Shown one piece after another: positions 12,327 through 28,895 of a stretch of DNA of 33,549 nucleotides (its first letter is position 1; the number at the start of each line of letters is the position of its first letter). The notes under the pieces are model-generated. The model saw nothing but the letters and a program-made list of their open reading frames with translations, made no database searches and was not told the origin of the DNA. The stretch is from Candidatus Colwellbacteria bacterium (GTDB lineage: Bacteria; Patescibacteriota; Minisyncoccia; UBA6257; Colwellbacteraceae). A program made the position numbers and the translations under genes. The stretch lies in NCBI GenBank assembly GCA_030700125.1, contig JAUYKE010000003.1, positions 1-33,549 on the forward strand, in the 5' to 3' direction.

Positions 12327-12457
12327 ACCGGGCAGTGAAAATTCGATCGCTTCGCGGCAAGATACATCATGGTGAAAAAACAATCCTGGAAATACTATAA
12401 AGTGCGCAGAAAGGCCGATTCTTATTTAAATAATCGAACTTCTACTGCCCGGTGAAC
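12324..12457. mobile_element. 129-bp MITE-like insertion with terminal inverted repeats and TGAAC direct repeats
   Basis: ACCGGGCAGT (12327) pairs with ACTGCCCGGT (ends 12453), plus TTCGAT/ATCGAA. TGAAC occurs at 12324 and 12453. Removing one unit restores ATG AAC ACC ATC overlapping the ATPase stop. Confidence 0.6.
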
Positions 12458-13213
12458 ACCATCGGTTTAATTACTCTTACCAGAAAGGAGTTAATGCGTT
12501 TTCTCCGCGTCCCTTTCCAGACTCTAGGATCGCCCATCGTTACCACTCTTCTTTATTTCACTGTTTTTGGTCTTTCCGTTGGTCGATTTGTGGGCGAGAT
12601 TGATGGTCTTCCTTACATTCAATTTATTATGCCGGGGCTTGTAATGATGAATTTGATTACCACCGCTTTCGGCGGCATTTCCTCCGGCTTTATGATGGCA
12701 AAGCTTATGAACACCCTTTCAGATATCTTAGTAACGCCCCTATCTCATTTAGAAATTATTCTCGGCTTCACCCTTTCCTCGGTTATAAGAAGCGTTCTCA
12801 CGGCACTTCTTATTTACGCGACTGCCCTCTTTTTCCTGCCTTTTGAGATTCAACATCCCTTTTACCTTCTTACAATTACCATTTTAGTAGCTTTCGTCTT
12901 TTCCTTACTTGGTCTTATCGTCGGTATTTGGGCAGAAAACTTTGAACAAGTAAGCTTCATCCCGACTTTCCTTTTAATGCCATTAAGTTTCCTAGGAGGT
13001 ATTTTTTATTCAATCAAAATGCTGCCGCCCCTATTCCAGCAGATCTCTCATTTCAATCCCTTGCTTTATATGATTAGCGGTATGCGTTACGGCTTCTATG
13101 GCGTAAGCGACGTGAACCCTTGGGCCGCTTTGGGCTTCCTTGCTCTTCTTACAGCCGCCCTAACAATCTTCACCGTCTATCTTTTCTCGATTGGCTATAA
13201 GATTAGAACGTAG
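12452..13213 (+). CDS. ABC-2 type transporter permease (YadH-like), GTG start
   Basis: KELMRFLR, YIQFIMPGLVMM, FLGGIFYSI and NPLLYMISGMRYGF motifs; multi-TM. Confidence 0.92.
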   Translation: MNTIGLITLTRKELMRFLRVPFQTLGSPIVTTLLYFTVFGLSVGRFVGEIDGLPYIQFIMPGLVMMNLITTAFGGISSGFMMAKLMNTLSDILVTPLSHLEIILGFTLSSVIRSVLTALLIYATALFFLPFEIQHPFYLLTITILVAFVFSLLGLIVGIWAENFEQVSFIPTFLLMPLSFLGGIFYSIKMLPPLFQQISHFNPLLYMISGMRYGFYGVSDVNPWAALGFLALLTAALTIFTVYLFSIGYKIRT

Positions 13214-13297
13214 TGCCCAGGGAGAGACTCGAACTCTCACATCCTTGCGGATACAGGATTTTGAGTCCTGCGCGTCTACCAGTTCCGCCACCTGGGC
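13214..13297 (-). tRNA. tRNA-Leu(CAA)
   Basis: Minus strand GCCCAGG...CCTGGGC acceptor stem, CAGGA-CTCAAAA-TCCTG anticodon arm, long variable arm, GTTCGAG T-loop; no encoded CCA. Confidence 0.96.
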
Positions 13298-13344
13298 TTC
13301 CGTTGAGTTTAGATAAATCCAAGTGTATTGTGAAGAGGAACCAA

Positions 13345-14148
13345 ATGGCTCGGGTAATTGCAGTTTGCAACCAGAAAGGGGGAGTGGGAAAGACTACCAC
13401 CAGTGTTAATCTGTCAGCTTATTTAGCTGCCCTTGGTCGGCGCGCGCTTCTTATTGATTTTGACCCCCAAGCTAATGCCACTTCAGCCCTTACTTACGAG
13501 CGAAATTTCCCCAAAAATATTTACCACGGTATTTTAAACCATTCTCATTACGAGGAGCTGGTTAGGCCAAGCGCCATTCTAAATTATCACTTTATTCCCT
13601 CCTCGCCCGATCTCTCCGGAGCCATTATTGAGTTGGTTAACCTGCCGGAGCGCGAATATTACTTGCGTAAATTTATTAACGAACTCCGACATCATTATGA
13701 TTATATTCTTATCGATTTGCCCCCCTCGCTTAGTCTCCTTACTGTAAACGGCTTAGTGGCTGCCGACGAAGTTTTAATTCCGGTTCAGGCCGAATATTAT
13801 GGCCTCGAAGGATTGGGCCAACTTCTCCAGACCATTCACCTCATTCGCGAGAATCTTAGACACCCATTATCCATTACCGGCGCCGTCATCACGCTTTATG
13901 ACAAGAGGGAGCGTCTCTCTCGTGATGTTAATAAAAATCTTCGGCGCCACTTTCCGCACCGAGTATTTAAAGTCGAGGTTCCCCGTTCAGTGGCTTTGGC
14001 TGAAGCCCCCAGCTATAGCAGGCCAATTATTCTTTATCAACCGTACTCTCCAGGCGCCTTGGCCTACCGTCGTTTGGCGCAAGAGTTGATTGAGCTCGAA
14101 TCTCAATATCAGATTCCAACTAGAGAGTTGGGCAATTTCAATGCCTAA
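13345..14148 (+). CDS. parA: Chromosome partition ATPase ParA/Soj
   Basis: NQKGGVGKTT, DFDPQANAT, DLPPSL and PRSVALAEAPS motifs. ATG 13345 follows a GAGGA SD; the ORF-track start lies inside the tRNA. Confidence 0.95.
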   Translation: MARVIAVCNQKGGVGKTTTSVNLSAYLAALGRRALLIDFDPQANATSALTYERNFPKNIYHGILNHSHYEELVRPSAILNYHFIPSSPDLSGAIIELVNLPEREYYLRKFINELRHHYDYILIDLPPSLSLLTVNGLVAADEVLIPVQAEYYGLEGLGQLLQTIHLIRENLRHPLSITGAVITLYDKRERLSRDVNKNLRRHFPHRVFKVEVPRSVALAEAPSYSRPIILYQPYSPGALAYRRLAQELIELESQYQIPTRELGNFNA

Positions 14149-14724: not shown

Positions 14725-15900
14725 ATGACTTTAGGCAGAGGACTAGAATCTCTTATACCACCCCGTGAACCCTTCGACCCTTCAACAAGTTCAGGGTCGC
14801 CCCGAGCAGAGTCGAGGGGCGACAAAGTTCAGGGTGAACCCACCAACGAACCCAAAAACGATTTGGGAAATAATCCTTTATCGGAGAACCAGAGCCAAAT
14901 AGGGGGTGAAGAAATTCAACCGTTGGGAGCAGATACTTCCCGTACGGAACATCCCGCAGGTTCACTGGGCTTGGTTCCCGACCGTAACGTCGGGACCAGT
15001 GAACCGAGGGAGAAGAAAATTTTGCCGCTGGAGCAAAATTATTCTGGTTCCGATAGGGGAGTATCTGCTCCCGAAGAAGCCGCTAAGGGAATTATCTTCC
15101 AAATTGAAACAGACAAAATTAAGCCCAACCCTCACCAACCCCGCCGTGATTTTGACGCGCAAGGATTGCAAGAGCTAGCCAATTCCATTAGAGAATTCGG
15201 CGTCATTCAGCCATTAATAGTCACTAAAAGTGAGAAAGAATCAGAGCGTGGCTGGGACGTAGAGTATGAACTTGTAGCCGGAGAAAGGCGACTAATGGCT
15301 TCTAAAATAGTCGGTCTCCGGAGTGTGCCGGCAATTATAAGGCAGGTTCCGCGAGATTATGAAAAGTTGGAACTTGCCGTTACAGAAAACGTCCAGCGAG
15401 CTAACCTAAACCCGATTGAGTTCGCAAGAGCCGTGGCCCGACTTCAGGAGGAATTTAAATTAACCCAAAGAGAAATCGCCACTCGTCTCGGTAAAAGCCG
15501 CGAAACAGTGGCTAATAGCGTCCGCTTGCTGAGCTTGCCATCGGAGATGCAAGAGGCAGTAGCCAAAGGAACTGTAAGCGAGAGCCAGGCCCGACTTCTG
15601 CTCTCGGTAGATGACGTTGCCCAAAGAGAAAAACTTTTCCAAGAAGTTCTCGTCGGCAGTCTCACCGTAAGAGAAATTAGTTCAAGGGTAAGACAATGGA
15701 AAGGCAGACCAGCCAGGGAGAATGCCAATATTGACCCTGAACTTCTAGCCCTGAAAGAACAGCTGGAAACAGCGCTAGGGGCTCCAGTGGAGCTTAAGCG
15801 TGATGGCGAAGGAGGAAAACTGACAATTAACTTCTATTCCAAAGAAGAGCTTGAAGGAATTCTAGCCAAATTTAAACAAAACGAGAGTCAATTTCTTTAA
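14725..15900 (+). CDS. parB: ParB/Spo0J with an N-terminal linker expanded by inserted repeats
   Basis: LGRGLESLIP, PNPHQPRR, VAGERR, ENVQRANLNPIE and an HTH region. Confidence 0.96.
   Translation: MTLGRGLESLIPPREPFDPSTSSGSPRAESRGDKVQGEPTNEPKNDLGNNPLSENQSQIGGEEIQPLGADTSRTEHPAGSLGLVPDRNVGTSEPREKKILPLEQNYSGSDRGVSAPEEAAKGIIFQIETDKIKPNPHQPRRDFDAQGLQELANSIREFGVIQPLIVTKSEKESERGWDVEYELVAGERRLMASKIVGLRSVPAIIRQVPRDYEKLELAVTENVQRANLNPIEFARAVARLQEEFKLTQREIATRLGKSRETVANSVRLLSLPSEMQEAVAKGTVSESQARLLLSVDDVAQREKLFQEVLVGSLTVREISSRVRQWKGRPARENANIDPELLALKEQLETALGAPVELKRDGEGGKLTINFYSKEELEGILAKFKQNESQFL
14765..14841 (+). repeat. Nested in-frame palindromic (REP-like) insertions in parB
   Basis: GTGAACCC direct repeats 69 nt apart enclose CCCTTCGAC..AAAGTTCAGGG, which is itself interrupted by a 45-nt double hairpin flanked by CGAC. 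Confidence 0.75.
14925..15072 (+). other. Copy 1 of a ~150-nt structured element, in-frame inside parB
   Basis: 17-bp closing stem GGGAGCAGATACTTCCC/GGGGAGTATCTGCTCCC; inner stems and loops are homologous to 28154-28302. Confidence 0.8.
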
Positions 15901-17695: not shown

Positions 17696-19915
17696 TCATG
17701 ACCGACGGTCGGGTCTATGATTAGGACAAGTTTTATCACTGCACCTCTCAGGGATAGTTTTTGTCCCCTCCATCATTAAAGAGCCACAAAGCTCGCAGAT
17801 ATTTCCGGTTGGCTTTGCCTTAATCGCGTATTTGCATTGAGGGTAATTAGAGCAGCTATAAAAAACTCCGTAGCGTCCTCTCTTTTCAACCATCTCTCCT
17901 CCGCCAGCTGGCGGACCGCACTTGGGACACTTCACGCCCGTGCTTGATTTGAGAGCTTCAGCCCCATCTTTCTTAATGTATTTACACTTCGGATAATTAC
18001 TGCAAGAAATAAATTTTCCATATCGTCCTTCCCGCTCTACTAATTTTCCGCCACACTCGGGGCAGGCCTCCCCAGTTTCTTTGGGACCTTCAAGCTCCCG
18101 GCCATCAAACGTTCGCGCGCCGGCGCACTCGGGAAACTTCTTACAGCTCAAGAATTTTCCGGCTCTGCCGAGCTTAATGACCATTCCCGACCCGCAAATA
18201 GGACATTTGAATTCTGGATCTGCCTCCCCTAGATTAGTTGCTTTCTCCAGCTTTTCTTTCGCTTTTACCTCTTTAGAGAACGGTCCGTAAAAGCTTTTAA
18301 GAGTAGCAACATACTCTCTTTTGCCTTGGGCAATTTCATCAAGTTCATCTTCCATCTCGGCAGTAAATGAATCACTAATATACTTAGCAAAGTTTTGCTC
18401 TAGAAAATCGCTCACGACTTCTCCGGTGTCAGTCGGTTTCAGGGATCGGCTGATTTTTTCTACGTATCCGCGGTCAAAGATAGTTTTGATTATCGCGGCA
18501 TAGGTGCTCGGCCTGCCAATTCCTCTTTTTTCCAGCTCTTTCACTAAACCGGCCTCACTATATCTTGGCGGCGGCTCGGTTTGCTTTTTTTCATCGTCTA
18601 ACCGAACGAGGGTAATGATTTCCCTCTCTTTTACGCGGGGGAGCTCAACTTCTTCTCCTCGAGCTTGCGGGTCAGATGCTAGCCATCCCGGAAAGACAAT
18701 AATATTCCCAGTAGTAGAAAAGTCAGGAATGCTTGCCCCGTGGTCCGACGAATCAACGTTGGCCGATATTTTGGTTCTCAAAATTTTGGCTGCTGCCATC
18801 TGCGAAGCGATTGTCCTCTGCCAAATAAGCTCATAAAGTTTTATTTCATCGCTCCTTGCGCCGGCCCCCTTTTTACTGATATCCGTTGGCCGAATGGCTT
18901 CGTGCGCTTCCTGTGCCACTTTACTTTTGGTAGTGTAGCGGCGGGGGAGTAGATATTCTTTACCGAAAGCACTCGCTATCTCTTGGTGAATTTCATGCAC
19001 GGCGTCGGAACTGATATTAAAGCTGTCGGTTCTCATATAACTAATGAGTCCCTGTTCATAAAGCTTTTGGGCAATGACCATCGTTCGAGCGGGAGAGAAT
19101 CCCAAGCGGGAACTCGCCGCTTGTTGAAGAGTCGAGGTAATGAATGGAGGACGAGGATTTCGTTCCGCCTCCGTCTGCTTAACTTCAATTATTCTCCATT
19201 TATTCTCCCTCGCCTCCTTTAAAATCCTCTCCGCTTCTTTTTCGCTCGTCGGCCTCTCTTCGCAAGTTAAAAGCAAAGCATGCCCTTCATCGGTTTTAAA
19301 TTCACCGGCGATCACCCAATAATCCTCTGGCACAAATGCGCGTATTTCCCGCTCCCGCTCAGCAAGGATTCTAAGCGCCGGCGACTGAACTCTTCCGGCA
19401 GATAGCCCATACCTTACTTTCTTCCAAATAAGCTCGCTTAACTCATAGCCAACCAGGCGATCAAGCACTCGGCGCGCTTCCTGCGCCTTTCTCAAATTCT
19501 CGTCAATATCCCGAGGGTTTTTCAGCGCCTCCTCAATTGCTTTCTTGGTAATCTCATGAATTACCAGCCGCTTGATAATCGGTAATTTTACATTTTGATT
19601 TTTAATTTTTGATTTCTCAAGTCCCAAGACTTGAGTGATGTGCCAGGCAATTGCTTCACCTTCGCGGTCAGGGTCAGTAGTTAGTAAAATCTCACTCGCA
19701 TTTTTAGCTGCCCTCTTTAGATCCTCTATAATTTTTTCTTTACCTTTAGCAATCTCATAGTGGGGGATAAATCCGCCGGAGATATCAATCGCTTTTTTAT
19801 TACTCTTTGGCAAGTCACGAACGTGGCCAACGCTTGCGCGGACCTCGTATCCTTTACCTAGGTACTTAGATATGGTTTTAGCTTTTGTAGGACTCTCAAC
19901 GATAATTAATTTCAT
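17696..19915 (-). CDS. topA: DNA topoisomerase I (type IA) with C-terminal Zn ribbons
   Basis: IVESPTKAKTI, DPDREGEAI, SAGRVQS, LISYMRTDS, AHEAIRPT, GIGRPSTY and repeated CPxCG ribbons. Confidence 0.98.
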   Translation of the reverse strand: MKLIIVESPTKAKTISKYLGKGYEVRASVGHVRDLPKSNKKAIDISGGFIPHYEIAKGKEKIIEDLKRAAKNASEILLTTDPDREGEAIAWHITQVLGLEKSKIKNQNVKLPIIKRLVIHEITKKAIEEALKNPRDIDENLRKAQEARRVLDRLVGYELSELIWKKVRYGLSAGRVQSPALRILAEREREIRAFVPEDYWVIAGEFKTDEGHALLLTCEERPTSEKEAERILKEARENKWRIIEVKQTEAERNPRPPFITSTLQQAASSRLGFSPARTMVIAQKLYEQGLISYMRTDSFNISSDAVHEIHQEIASAFGKEYLLPRRYTTKSKVAQEAHEAIRPTDISKKGAGARSDEIKLYELIWQRTIASQMAAAKILRTKISANVDSSDHGASIPDFSTTGNIIVFPGWLASDPQARGEEVELPRVKEREIITLVRLDDEKKQTEPPPRYSEAGLVKELEKRGIGRPSTYAAIIKTIFDRGYVEKISRSLKPTDTGEVVSDFLEQNFAKYISDSFTAEMEDELDEIAQGKREYVATLKSFYGPFSKEVKAKEKLEKATNLGEADPEFKCPICGSGMVIKLGRAGKFLSCKKFPECAGARTFDGRELEGPKETGEACPECGGKLVEREGRYGKFISCSNYPKCKYIKKDGAEALKSSTGVKCPKCGPPAGGGEMVEKRGRYGVFYSCSNYPQCKYAIKAKPTGNICELCGSLMMEGTKTIPERCSDKTCPNHRPDRRS
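17900..17915. repeat. 16-bp perfect palindrome TCCGCCAGCTGGCGGA, in-frame in topA (PPAGG)
   Basis: Adds 5 aa after CPKCG relative to the sister ribbons CPICGSGMV and CPECGGKLV; CCGC direct repeats lie 15 nt apart. Confidence 0.7.
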
Positions 19916-27529: not shown

Positions 27530-27973
27530 TTATAAGATCTCGACTCGGGCCACTTGGGTCCCGAACCGCAGCGCTTCGTCAGTGCTTGAGAACCAAACAT
27601 CAACTTTACCGTTCATTCTACTATGCATCCGGTCTTCTACTATGAAGACCTGATCACCGAATAGCGTCGGGATTCTGATTTTGGCACCGAGGGGCAGCCA
27701 GTTGGCCGCCACAACTCCCGGCCGAACCTTTGTCCCGGCAGCGGTCATGAACGGAGTATCATCTGTTTCTCCGACCCGACTGGAGTAAGCTGTAATTACC
27801 ACTTTCACAAACCTACTTTTCGCACTTTGAGGTGTCTCAGTCGGGCTTTGGTTCAAGAGGGCTGTATCTTGAGCCACCGGCAGTGGCTCGTAGCCTACTG
27901 CGCCTCCTGTAACCGCAATTTTCAAGGTTCCAAGCATGACTAAAAGAAACGCCGAGATGAGGTATTTACTCAT
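27530..27973 (-). CDS. 3D-domain protein (putative peptidoglycan lytic transglycosylase)
   Basis: Signal peptide, TAYSS..ETDDTPFMTAAG, VAANWLPLG, VEDR and VDVW motifs. Confidence 0.88.
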   Translation of the reverse strand: MSKYLISAFLLVMLGTLKIAVTGGAVGYEPLPVAQDTALLNQSPTETPQSAKSRFVKVVITAYSSRVGETDDTPFMTAAGTKVRPGVVAANWLPLGAKIRIPTLFGDQVFIVEDRMHSRMNGKVDVWFSSTDEALRFGTQVARVEIL

Positions 27974-28021
27974 TCTGGGCAATAAAAAACCCCGTTTTAT
28001 CGGGATTTCTACTGCTCCATC

Positions 28022-28051
28022 ATCCTACCATATCGGGTCTCAAAAAGTCAA
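28022..28051 (-). promoter_or_regulatory. Sigma70-type promoter for the 3D-domain gene
   Basis: Minus strand TTGACT-18 nt-TAGGAT with a TG extension. Confidence 0.6.
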
Positions 28052-28127
28052 CCCCAACACCTAATGAGGATGTGCATGGCCTTTTTGCGCCTACGGCACT
28101 AACCCTCATTAGGTGTGGGGGTCAACC
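28047..28127. repeat. 74-nt hairpin insertion flanked by GTCAACC direct repeats
   Basis: 13-bp perfect stem ACACCTAATGAGG/CCTCATTAGGTGT plus CCCC/GGGG. Confidence 0.65.
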
Positions 28128-28153
28128 AGTCGTCTACAGGGGGTCAAGAGGAG

Positions 28154-28302
28154 CGCCCAGCACCTTGCTGTCGTAGAGAACCTCTCGCAGTTCCGCTGGG
28201 CTCGGTCCCTGAACTTGTTGAAGGGCCAGCGGAACGAGAGGAGGAGGTCCGACCGCTGGAGTCGGACAATCCGAGTTCTCATAGACAGCAAGGTGCTGGG
28301 CG
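28154..28302 (+). ncRNA. Copy 2 of the ~150-nt structured element (unidentified ncRNA or ssDNA mobile element)
   Basis: 19-bp perfect closing stem and a three-way junction; stems covary with the parB-internal copy. Transcription is not demonstrated. Confidence 0.65.
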
Positions 28303-28358
28303 ACATCCCCCTTAAAGGAAGAGGTATTGGTAAGCACCCATGTTAAAATAAAAATGCC

Positions 28359-28895
28359 ATGCGAGAATATTTTACGCCCGGAATCGTCCTTGATAGGGAA
28401 CCGAGAAACGAATTAGACGAAGACATCATCATCTACACGAAAAATTTAGGCAAAGTAAGGGCCTTCACTAAAAGTAGCCGGAAAATTACTTCTAAGCTTT
28501 CCGGTCATCTCACTCCCGGTCGCCTGGCCAACCTCAGATTTGTTGAAAGAAACAAGCTCCAATTGGTAGATGCTCTATCTCTTCCCGCGCCCGGCAACCC
28601 CAAAGAGCTTTTGTTCTTCCTCAATTTTATCAACAAAACTACCCCTTACGGCGATGCCGATTTAAGTTTATGGTATATGGTAGAAGAAATTGTTGGAGGT
28701 AATCATTTGAGTCCCGCTATTTATCGGCACCTCCTTGAACGGCTGGGATTTGGCGGGGAAGAAGTTAATTGTCATTACTGCGAAAACGGTGAAGTAAACT
28801 TCTTTGATCCGTCCGAAACTGTTTTTTTGTGTTCTAAATGCCGCCCGGTAATAAATATTGACTTTGATGAACTCATCCTTTTGGAAGAAAGTTAG
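28359..28895 (+). CDS. recO: DNA repair protein RecO (short form)
   Basis: GIVL.....E.D..I.IYTK.LGKV...KSSRKITSKLSGHL and a CxxC..CxxC Zn finger. Confidence 0.88.
   Translation: MREYFTPGIVLDREPRNELDEDIIIYTKNLGKVRAFTKSSRKITSKLSGHLTPGRLANLRFVERNKLQLVDALSLPAPGNPKELLFFLNFINKTTPYGDADLSLWYMVEEIVGGNHLSPAIYRHLLERLGFGGEEVNCHYCENGEVNFFDPSETVFLCSKCRPVINIDFDELILLEES

What the first reader, a model, noticed from the sequence alone, without database searches (positions are those of the whole stretch)
14925..15072. The same structured element is embedded in-frame and stop-free inside parB
Seen in sequence: copy B lies on the sense strand in the ParB N-terminal linker and is translated as roughly GADTSRTEHPAGSLGLVPDRNVGTSEPREKKILPLEQNYSGSDRGVSAP. 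About 110 residues separate LGRGL from the ParB/Srx core, longer than typical. A competing 17-bp helix with a 2-nt bulge is possible between 14875-14893 and 15043-15059. Inference: either the element is tolerated as a peptide insertion, analogous to Rickettsia palindromic elements, or it is removed or processed at the RNA level or modulates parB translation.
Basis: partly seen in the sequence, partly recalled or inferred. Interest (0 to 1): 0.8.

Follow-up and report, generated by a model that had tools for sequence, protein, structure and literature searches.

The report
Folded DNA repeat translated inside ParB
A 150-base, three-armed hairpin repeat that is scattered through the tiny genomes of Patescibacteria sits in frame in a floppy linker of the chromosome-partition protein ParB, where it is read through as harmless extra peptide; the family appears undescribed, and most copies point one way relative to the strand asymmetry used as a proxy for replication direction.

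Summary
Window 14921-15079 holds a three-way-junction hairpin (-87.9 kcal/mol, z -10) in frame in parB, between the LGRGL motif and the ParB core.

It is one of 9 copies in this 555-kb Colwellbacteria-type genome. The family occurs in 24 of 61 related genomes and 13 of 150 other genomes of the phylum. Stems covary strongly, loops are conserved, and no Rfam family matches.

Thirteen distinct ParB orthologues carry the element at the same place. It is always stop-free, but it is read in different codon phases and in both orientations. Base-pairing is kept (90.7%) while the peptide is not (mean identity 0.28). AlphaFold gives residues 20-120 pLDDT below 50. So it is a translated passenger, like Rickettsia palindromic elements, not an intron or a bypassed segment.

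New here:
- The element is more conserved than four-fold sites of the neighbouring parB core.
- G·U outnumbers A·C on one strand whichever way host genes run.
- 51 of 57 copies in regions of clear GC skew point against the skew.

This suggests a single-strand, replication-linked life cycle. I found no target duplication, and this genome has no recognisable transposase.

The scan has met this class of repeat before on other DNA.

The parts
14725..15900 (+). parB gene (391 aa): N-terminal MTLGRGLESLIPP motif, long linker, ParB/Srx core from about residue 123
   Evidence: ORF. Homologues carry PF02195, PF17762 and PF23552. In the AF2 model, residues 121 onward have pLDDT 80-93 and residues 20-120 are below 50.
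14921..15079 (+). Element copy B (covariance-model hit); the stem-closed core is 14923-15074
   Evidence: R1 175.8 bits, E 1e-43. R2 gives 154.1 bits on + and 21.5 bits on -. Fold.
14923..14941 (+). P1 closing stem, 5' arm (pairs with 15056-15074)
   Evidence: MFE structure. 18 of 19 P1 pairs show two-sided changes among parB copies.
14942..14950 (+). Internal loop GTA (opposite ATA at 15053-15055) and inner stem CGGAAC (pairs with 15047-15052)
   Evidence: model consensus.
14952..15011 (+). First arm: P2, CAG bulge, 10-bp P3, conserved 7-nt loop GCTTGGT (14969-14975), variable P4 hairpin (14976-14995)
   Evidence: P3 is 97% paired and P4 91% paired over 41 rows.
15014..15045 (+). Second arm P5, with the conserved hairpin loop inside CCGCTGGAG (15024-15033)
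   Evidence: This segment has the highest summed contig depth in 4 groundwater runs.
15056..15074 (+). P1 closing stem, 3' arm
28152..28307 (+). Element copy A, intergenic between a minus-strand gene (27530-27982) and a recO-like gene (28359-28895)
   Evidence: 150 bits.
14875..14893 (+).
   Evidence: Read from the sequence. A similar stretch lies in L121. R2 gives no match here.
14775..14819 (+). A different, small hairpin repeat in the same linker (CCCTTCAACAAGTTCAGGG plus a GTCGCCCC/GGGGCGAC hairpin), present or absent between strains
   Evidence: It is the exact 19-nt reverse complement of P4 of copy A (I18). Contigs of 2 runs skip 14775-14819, 45 nt. Eight matches to the 19-mer, counting this one, with up to 3 mismatches in the genome.

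Best explanation
Copy B is a resident copy of a widespread interspersed repeat of Patescibacteria, about 150 nt long, that I found described nowhere. Its defining feature is a fold. A long closing stem that differs from copy to copy encloses a three-way junction with two arms and conserved loop sequences (GCUUGGU and CCGCUGGAG).

Shown:
- The family is multi-copy and patchily distributed.
- It keeps its pairing through compensatory changes.
- It has one preferred folding strand that does not depend on host transcription.
- It points mostly against the local GC skew.

Inferred: it lives or spreads as folded single-stranded DNA in step with replication, in the manner of hairpin-dependent elements (IS200/IS605 ends, REPs, integron attC sites). 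The enzyme involved is unknown.

In parB the element landed in the disordered linker between the ParA-contacting LGRGL peptide and the ParB core. It has stayed there in a whole clade. The ribosome reads through it, giving about 50 residues of variable spacer peptide. Only stop-free versions whose length keeps the frame survive in this essential gene. The peptide itself is not what is conserved. A side effect on parB mRNA, through a very stable hairpin, is possible but untested.
For: Family and fold:
- 9 matches in the own genome at E 1e-43 to 8e-24.
- Matches in 24 of 61 related genomes, 1-20 matches per genome, and in 13 of 150 other genomes of the phylum.
- On 41 distinct rows, 91.8% of cells are paired against 59.7% when shuffled. 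55 of 59 pairs have two-sided changes. The covariation score is 0.778, against 0.211 shuffled and at most 0.14 when partners are slid.
- No Rfam family matches at the gathering score or at E <= 1.

Passenger peptide in parB:
- 13 of 66 distinct complete ParB linkers hold the element in frame, 0-26 nt upstream of the core.
- The conserved motifs are read in different codon phases (PLE or RW; LGL, AW or GHG), and in two lineages the element is antisense.
- The 13 parB copies are 90.7% paired, with 50 of 59 pairs changed on both sides.
- Mean peptide identity is 0.28, against 0.65 for the core.
- AF2 pLDDT is below 50 for residues 20-120.

Vertical descent and constraint:
- The window copy is closest to the orthologue L121 (0.85), not to its own paralogues (at most 0.74).
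- Element identity is 126 of 149, against 58 of 102 at four-fold sites of the core (Fisher p 2e-6). For L140-L151 it is 0.75 (paired columns) and 0.91 (unpaired columns), against 0.36.

Single-strand polarity:
- G·U 90 against A·C 27 overall.
- The same asymmetry holds in copies antisense to both neighbouring genes (33 against 9) and sense to both (26 against 8).
- 91 of 121 copies from 19 genomes point against the local GC skew; where |skew| is at least 0.1, 51 of 57 do.

Other points:
- No regular target duplication: mean flanking repeat 1.8 nt against 1.35 nt in controls.
- Most copies are intergenic; 3 of 40 lie in a long open frame, and one of those three is spurious.
Against: - No mobility event was seen. 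No empty-site allele of the parB copy appeared in contigs of 4 runs or among close homologues.
- The 96%-complete genome shows no Y1/HUH transposase, reverse transcriptase, TnpB, rve or DDE_Tnp_1 domain. It has only two tyrosine recombinases.
- The RAYT-like Y1 genes of 13 relatives carry their own short hairpins and lie on other contigs than the copies, or 28 kb away.
- Conservation above the four-fold-site level at a fixed locus is not expected of decaying selfish DNA. It would fit a host function, or gene conversion.
- If GC skew marks the leading strand, the favoured folding strand lies on the lagging-strand sequence. That is the opposite of what is reported for the active strand of IS608.
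- The orientation rule fails in three genomes: in regions with |skew| at least 0.05, 5 of 10 copies follow it in G018, 0 of 2 in G028 and 0 of 2 in G023 (my tallies; skew is weak in G018 and G028).
- GC skew is only a proxy for replication direction and correlates with gene direction.
- Alignments fitted to the model lean towards its structure.
Confidence: 0.62

Rival explanations
1. The parB copy has been co-opted by the host. The very stable hairpin in parB mRNA or DNA sets ParB dosage, for example as an RNase III target, a translational pause between the ParA-binding peptide and the core, or a transcription roadblock. It is kept for that reason.
For: - The element has stayed at the same spot across ParB divergence that saturates four-fold sites (identity 0.36), while the element stays at 0.75-0.91.
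- The window copy descends vertically.
- Pairing is kept among 13 parB copies.
Against: - Relatives inside the same clades carry only remnants (L130, L046, L044) or rearranged cores that lack the conserved loops (L122, L126).
- Sister genes carry opposite orientations (L151 and L057: core 0.89-0.90 identical, element 0.46-0.48).
- In the antisense copies the wobble pairs sit on the non-mRNA strand: 6 G·U and 0 A·C.
- 25-, 10- and 8-row ParB clades have no copy.
Confidence: 0.14
2. The family is a set of chromosome-maintenance sites in folded DNA that are polar with respect to replication. Examples would be an alternative loading or centromere-like site, or a fork-related site. The copy inside parB would then be analogous to the parS site inside spo0J of Bacillus subtilis (recalled, not from a call).
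For: - About 9 copies per genome.
- Orientation is tied to GC skew.
- No canonical parS within 2 mismatches in this genome.
- By my tally, 10 of the 12 genomes with 4 or more matches have no canonical parS match, against 19 of the other 49.
Against: - The family was not found in 37 of 61 relatives, although ParB homologues were found throughout the group.
- Six genomes have both the element and 3 or more parS matches.
- The stems differ between copies, so no fixed duplex site exists.
- parS clusters lie at contig ends in some relatives, so an assembly may miss them.
- Related genomes are not independent.
- No parS-like site lay within 1.5 kb of parB in any of 80 loci, so nothing links the two locally.
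Confidence: 0.06
3. The copies are genes or cis-elements for a structured RNA (a small RNA, a ribozyme or a processing signal). The parB copy acts in the parB transcript.
For: The pattern is typical of RNA: conserved loops and covarying stems. G·U exceeds A·C. The parB copy is on the sense strand.
Against: - Orientation is unrelated to the neighbouring genes: 10 sense against 13 antisense, my tally.
- Most copies oppose the majority gene direction.
- No Rfam match.
- Copies sit in frame in a gene in both orientations.
- No RNA run was available to test expression.
Confidence: 0.1
4. The element is taken out of expression, either spliced from the mRNA or skipped by the ribosome (translational bypass), so ParB lacks the peptide.
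Against: - The frame is open in 13 of 13 complete orthologous linkers, against 29.5% of frames in copies outside parB.
- Indels between orthologues keep the frame.
- No intron or ribozyme model matches.
Confidence: 0.02

Closest known systems
Rickettsia palindromic elements (RPE; passages read in the review PMC10969869)
   Same: Palindromic repeats of about 150 bp in a reduced genome. They are found both between genes and in frame inside essential genes, where they are translated without destroying the protein.
   Different: The review says each RPE encodes a conserved peptide and that nearly half the RPEs lie in ORFs. Here the peptide is not conserved: it is read in several codon phases and in both orientations. 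Only 1-3 of 40 copies lie in ORFs. What is conserved is a three-way-junction fold with fixed loops. The hosts are Patescibacteria. Sequence relatedness to RPEs was not tested.
Bacterial MITEs such as Correia/nemis, ERIC, Nezha and Chunjie (passages read in the review PMC3184786)
   Same: Small (under 200 bp), with no coding capacity of their own, multi-copy, folding into very stable hairpins, and sometimes overlapping genes.
   Different: By that review, MITEs have terminal inverted repeats shared with a parent IS, and flanking target duplications. Here the terminal stems differ between copies, no duplication was found, and this genome has no DDE or rve transposase.
bcr1 repeat of the Bacillus cereus group (passage in PMC3184786)
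   Same: About 155 bp, with compensatory changes that keep a branched fold, and a scattered, non-conserved genomic distribution.
   Different: bcr1 has 5-bp direct repeats at its flanks and is known to be transcribed. Neither is shown here. The orientation bias to GC skew and in-frame residence in a gene are, as far as I read, not reported for bcr1.
Single-strand, hairpin-dependent elements: IS200/IS605 ends and their miniature derivatives, and REP/RAYT (passages in PMC5027513; abstracts of PMC3333891 and PMC6006769 in the listing)
   Same: No terminal inverted-repeat consensus and no target duplication. Recognition by fold rather than sequence, with one active strand. Orientation in genomes is tied to replication.
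   Different: Those elements have separate hairpins at each end, a Y1 transposase and a fixed target tetranucleotide. Here there is one closed three-way junction. This genome has no Y1 gene. No strong target motif appears on reading the flanks. The polarity looks opposite to IS608 if the G·U-tolerant strand is the active one.

Membership tests
Rickettsia palindromic elements (RPE) | Palindromic repeat of about 100-150 bp, multi-copy in the genome | tested here: met
   148-159 nt, 9 copies.
Rickettsia palindromic elements (RPE) | Inserted in frame in protein-coding genes and translated | tested here: met
   Open in the parB frame in 13 of 13 complete orthologous linkers. Translation itself is inferred, not observed.
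Rickettsia palindromic elements (RPE) | Each family encodes one conserved peptide (review PMC10969869) | tested here: not met
   Mean peptide identity 0.28; read in different codon phases and antisense.
Rickettsia palindromic elements (RPE) | Sequence homology to RPE families; host genus Rickettsia | not tested
   No RPE sequence was compared. The host is a Colwellbacteria-type Patescibacterium, going by source names of the homologues.
MITE | Terminal inverted repeats with a family consensus, shared with a parent IS | tested here: not met
   The ends pair, but their sequence differs between copies: P1 identity to the window copy is 0.26-0.45 among paralogues. No DDE_Tnp_1 or rve domain in the genome.
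MITE | Flanking target-site duplication | tested here: not met
   In 34 copies the mean flanking direct repeat is 1.8 nt, against 1.35 nt for mismatched flanks; 3 of 34 reach 4 nt or more.
MITE | Filled and empty sites between close relatives (evidence of mobility) | tested here: inconclusive
   Presence, remnants and absence occur at the parB site across the tree, and orientation and subtype turn over. No clean empty allele was found.
IS200/IS605-type or REP/RAYT single-strand elements | A Y1 (HUH) transposase acting on the hairpins | tested here: not met
   PF01797 has no match in the own genome. It matches in 16 of 61 relatives, none adjacent to a copy. The RAYT-like genes have their own, unrelated flanking hairpins.
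IS200/IS605-type or REP/RAYT single-strand elements | Strand-specific, with orientation biased relative to replication | tested here: met
   G·U 90 against A·C 27. 51 of 57 copies oppose the GC skew where |skew| is at least 0.1. The sign is opposite to that expected for IS608, and skew is only a proxy.
IS200/IS605-type or REP/RAYT single-strand elements | Separate subterminal hairpins at the left and right ends, and a fixed target tetra- or pentanucleotide | tested here: not met
   The structure is one closed three-way junction. The flanks printed show only a weak preference, on my reading: the 5' flank often ends in A and the 3' flank often starts with R-A.
Integron attC site | Core sites RYYYAAC / GTTRRRY (recalled), arrays of cassettes next to intI | tested here: not met
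   The inner stem reads CGGAAC / GTTCCG or GAGAAC / GTTCTC, not the recalled core. Copies are dispersed over 6 contigs next to housekeeping genes. The two tyrosine recombinases on C18 were not characterised.
Any Rfam 15 RNA family | Match to a curated covariance model | tested here: not met
   No match over the element at the gathering score (whole window) or at E <= 1 in six loci with copies.

The most novel reading that the evidence does not exclude
The family is not merely selfish DNA. It is a set of strand-polar, replication-oriented folded-DNA sites that the cell uses in chromosome maintenance, for example as an alternative ParB/SMC loading or centromere-like site, or as a replication-fork signal. 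On this reading the copy inside parB is kept because it matters. That would explain three things: conservation above the synonymous-site level at a fixed locus, about ten copies per genome, and the scarcity of canonical parS in genomes rich in the element.
Probability: 0.07. Interest if true: 0.9.

Novelty: new variant of a known kind. Interest (0 to 1): 0.62.

Why it matters
Patescibacteria make up a large share of bacterial diversity, have tiny and densely packed genomes, and cannot be studied genetically. A repeat found across the phylum, kept as a precise fold, living inside an essential partition gene and pointing one way relative to strand asymmetry raises two possibilities. One is an unknown single-strand DNA mobility system that works without a recognisable transposase. 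The other is a host function written in DNA structure.

Two practical points follow:
- These elements inflate and scramble linker regions of annotated proteins, and they break metagenome assemblies. Contigs end inside the element.
- The covariance model built here can flag them.

The parB series also gives a rare natural experiment: one nucleic-acid element read in several frames and both orientations in one protein.

Tried and rejected
- **RNA evidence.** No RNA holder was listed among 21 runs, so expression could not be tested.
- **Contigs of four DNA runs.** No contig joins across the element. They only show that the element is highly repeated in the community and that contigs break in it.
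- **Rfam.** Nothing at the gathering score or at E <= 1.
- **Third inverted repeat, 12327-12453 (I24).** It folds weakly (z -2 to -3) and is not a family member.
- **A motif hit on contig C1.** It does not fold like the element.
- **Target duplications.** None.
- **In-situ inversion between L151 and L057.** The alignments are ambiguous, so I make no claim.
- **RAYT-like Y1 genes as the mobiliser.** By my tally, 8 of 13 genomes that have such a gene also have the element. But the genes are unlinked to copies and have their own hairpins, so this is left as a weak lead.
- **Canonical parS near parB.** None in 80 loci.
- **Clustered alternative palindromes in the own genome.** None.
- **Replication direction at the parB copy itself.** It cannot be read: GC skew in the window is weak and follows gene direction.
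- **MAFFT alignment of four copies.** It mis-registered the middle arm. I therefore gave the model the fold of the window copy and realigned with Infernal.
- **Literature.** Four searches on this element class found no description of it in Patescibacteria. Supplementary files were not consulted.
Full report
**What is there.** The window is contig C14 of a 555-kb, 41-contig genome that is 96% complete. Source names of the closest ParB homologues point to Candidatus Colwellbacteria, in the Patescibacteria. The parB gene runs 14725-15900. It begins with MTLGRGLESLIPP, and its ParB/Srx core starts near residue 123. Inside the linker, 14925-15072 forms a 26-nt inverted repeat around 96 nt. The stretch folds at -87.9 kcal/mol, against -46.0 +/- 4.2 for 200 shuffles (z -9.98). 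The fold has a 19-bp closing stem, a 3x3 internal loop (GTA/ATA), a 6-bp inner stem and a three-way junction with two arms. A second copy at 28154-28302 has the same architecture, different stem sequences and identical loop motifs.

**A family, not a pair.** A motif search found two more copies. A covariance model built from these four copies found nine strong matches in the genome, at E 1e-43 to 8e-24. Eight of them fill gaps between genes. The model matched in 24 of 61 related genomes (G000 included): 15 of 36 other genomes of the same family and 8 of 24 other families of the order, with 1-20 matches per genome. A second model, built from 42 aligned matches, matched in 13 of 150 further genomes drawn evenly across the phylum at E <= 1e-5.

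On 41 distinct rows, 91.8% of cells pair, against 59.7% in shuffles. 55 of 59 pairs show changes on both sides. The covariation score is 0.778, against 0.211 in shuffles and at most 0.14 with slid partners. This alignment was fitted to the model, which favours the structure. The most constant parts are unpaired: GCUUGGU in the first arm and the loop within CCGCUGGAG in the second. No Rfam 15 family matches, either at the gathering score or at E <= 1. Four literature searches on this element class found no description in Patescibacteria. Earlier notes of this scan describe the same class on other genomes. I treated those notes as leads only.

**The parB copy is translated as a passenger.** I collected 160 parB loci from genome and metagenome contigs. 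My motif patterns found a core in 102 of the 161 sources (the window included). In 87 of them the N-terminal motif lies in the same open frame, which gives 66 distinct linkers of 35-168 residues. Thirteen of the 66 hold a model match inside the linker, always without a stop. Three more hold a copy just outside parB. Three further loci, two cut by a contig end and one missed by my N-terminal pattern, also carry the element in frame (L124, L125, L154).

The element ends 0-26 nt before the first core codon. In 39 copies outside parB, only 29.5% of copy-frame combinations are stop-free, against 12.4% after mononucleotide shuffling. So the unbroken frames in parB indicate that the stretch is translated.

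The same nucleotides are read differently in different orthologues. CGCTGG is read as P-L-E in the window, L121 and L124, and as R-W in L143, L154, L159 and L162. GCWTGG is read as L-G-L or S-L-V in most, as A-W in L179 and as G-H-G in L159. L043/L136/L137 and L057 carry the element antisense. Close protein homologues show the same split: ADTSRTEH...YSGSDR in some and ...ERAWSP... in others. For the latter I had no DNA.

Among the 13 parB copies, 90.7% of cells pair and 50 of 59 pairs changed on both sides. Among the 11 of them whose peptide could be read in the parB frame, peptide identity averages 0.28, against 0.65 for the ParB core. AlphaFold2, run on a 23-row alignment, gives pLDDT below 50 and no secondary structure for residues 20-120, and 80-93 for most of the core. 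Splicing or ribosomal bypass is therefore unnecessary and unsupported.

**History at the parB site.** On a quick ParB-core tree of 80 rows, element-bearing genes fall in two neighbouring groups of 12 and 22 rows. Groups of 25, 10 and 8 rows have none (three near-identical rows were mislabelled 'none' there and are corrected).

The window copy is closest to its orthologue in L121 (0.85 identity; closing stem 0.66), not to any paralogue in its own genome (at most 0.74; closing stem at most 0.45). That argues for vertical descent rather than recent conversion.

The site also turns over:
- L151 and L057 have cores 0.89-0.90 identical, but their elements lie in opposite orientation and are 0.46-0.48 identical.
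- L143 and L162 show 0.80 for the core against 0.52-0.53 for the element.
- L130, L046 and L044 keep only remnants.
- L122 and L126 keep the closing stem but have lost the conserved arms.
- L124 and L125 have gained a fourth arm.
- L143 has a remnant of one subtype in front of a full copy of another.

**Constraint.** Between the window and L121, 126 of 149 element columns are identical (unpaired columns 0.94, inner stems 0.90, closing stem 0.66). At four-fold degenerate sites of the adjacent core, 58 of 102 are identical (Fisher p 2e-6). For L140-L151 the figures are 0.75 (paired) and 0.91 (unpaired), against 0.36. For L043-L057 they are 0.53 and 0.82, against 0.27. The aligned part of the non-element linker is also fairly similar (81 of 106), but it carries 51 nt of indels. 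Resident copies are thus kept closer to the family pattern than neutral sites. Either selection or conversion from a conserved pool could do this, and I cannot separate the two.

**Polarity.** The model scores 154 bits on one strand and 21.5 on the other. On the favoured strand, wobble pairs outnumber A·C mismatches 90 to 27 (40 rows, after dropping one duplicate locus and one reverse-strand hit). The asymmetry is the same in 13 copies antisense to both neighbouring genes (33 against 9) and in 10 copies sense to both (26 against 8). It also holds in the two antisense parB copies (6 against 0). So the strand that must fold is not defined by host transcription.

I then compared orientation with GC skew in up to 20 kb around each copy, with the element masked:
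- First set (5 genomes): 39 of 51 copies point against the skew, and 24 of 24 do where |skew| is at least 0.1. On contig C5 of G089, skew and orientation flip together (the 24 of 24 is my tally from its output).
- Second set (14 further genomes): 52 of 70, and 27 of 33 where |skew| is at least 0.1. In 20 of 26 contig arms, all copies oppose the skew.
- Together: 91 of 121, and 51 of 57.
- Gene-direction majority predicts orientation less well: 80 of 121.
- In three genomes the rule fails. In regions with |skew| at least 0.05, my tallies give 5 of 10 copies against the skew in G018, 0 of 2 in G028 and 0 of 2 in G023. Skew is weak in G018 and G028.

In the window itself the skew is too weak to read. 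GC skew is a proxy for replication direction, and copies on one arm are not independent.

**What moves it.** This is unknown. Flanks show no regular direct repeat. The own genome has no PF01797, PF00078, PF07282, PF00665 or PF01609 match, and only two adjacent tyrosine recombinases. Thirteen relatives have RAYT-like Y1 genes of about 220-270 residues, flanked by their own short hairpins. These are unrelated to the element and lie on other contigs than its copies, or 28 kb away. The combination of no terminal consensus, no duplication, a fold-defined strand and replication-linked orientation resembles single-strand elements such as IS200/IS605 (passages of PMC5027513). But the architecture differs, and the polarity appears opposite.

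**A lead left open.** This genome has no canonical parS within two mismatches, while 32 of 61 relatives have matches, often in tight clusters. By my tally, 10 of 12 genomes with four or more element matches have no parS match, against 19 of the other 49. Shared ancestry and assembly gaps at parS clusters could explain this. Nothing links the two locally.

**Verdict.** The finding is real. Its first interpretation, a tolerated and translated insertion, is right. The element belongs to an apparently undescribed, phylum-wide family of folded repeats. It works like an RPE inside ParB but fails the membership tests for RPE, MITE, IS200/IS605-type and attC elements. Its constraint and strand polarity are the parts worth following.

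Noticed in passing
window 14775-14819: A second, smaller hairpin repeat in the parB linker (CCCTTCAACAAGTTCAGGG followed by a GTCGCCCC...GGGGCGAC hairpin; peptide PSTSSGSPRAESRGD). Contigs of two runs skip exactly these 45 nt, and the closest homologue P0001 lacks the peptide. The 19-mer is the exact reverse complement of the P4 hairpin of element copy A (28207-28225), and 8 matches, counting this one, with up to 3 mismatches lie in the genome.
   Followed up: partly
window 17900 (inside the topA-like ORF 17696-19915, minus strand) and 10 other places in the genome: The 16-nt palindrome TCCGCCAGCTGGCGGA occurs 11 times (up to 2 mismatches), dispersed over the genome. The window copy lies inside the topoisomerase ORF near the peptide GPPAGGGE. 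It may be another small in-frame hairpin repeat.
   Followed up: no
window 28050-28120: A separate strong inverted repeat (AACCCCAACACCTAATGAGG ... CCCTCATTAGGTGTGGGGGT) lies just upstream of element copy A in the same intergenic region.
   Followed up: no
L201-L208 (relatives G023, G037, G045, G016, G021, G049, G022, G007): RAYT-like Y1/HUH genes of about 217-256 residues (motif MPNHYHLL or close variants). Most have the same short palindrome upstream and downstream, and the palindrome differs from genome to genome. This is a REP/RAYT-type arrangement in Patescibacteria.
   Followed up: partly
relatives G003, G008, G013, G019, G032, G038, G050, G053, G059: Canonical parS sites occur as tight arrays of 3-10 copies spaced about 45-100 bp apart, sometimes at contig ends. 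The window's own genome has none within 2 mismatches.
   Followed up: partly
window 13213-13297 (minus strand): A tRNA-Leu(CAA) gene lies under the 5' extension of the ORF call for parA (13213-14148). The real ParA start is probably the internal MARVIAV..., so the long ORF is an artefact.
   Followed up: no
G000 contig C18:16565-18565: Two adjacent tyrosine-recombinase genes (317 and 326 aa open frames). They are the only recombinase-type domains found among those searched. They were not characterised.
   Followed up: no
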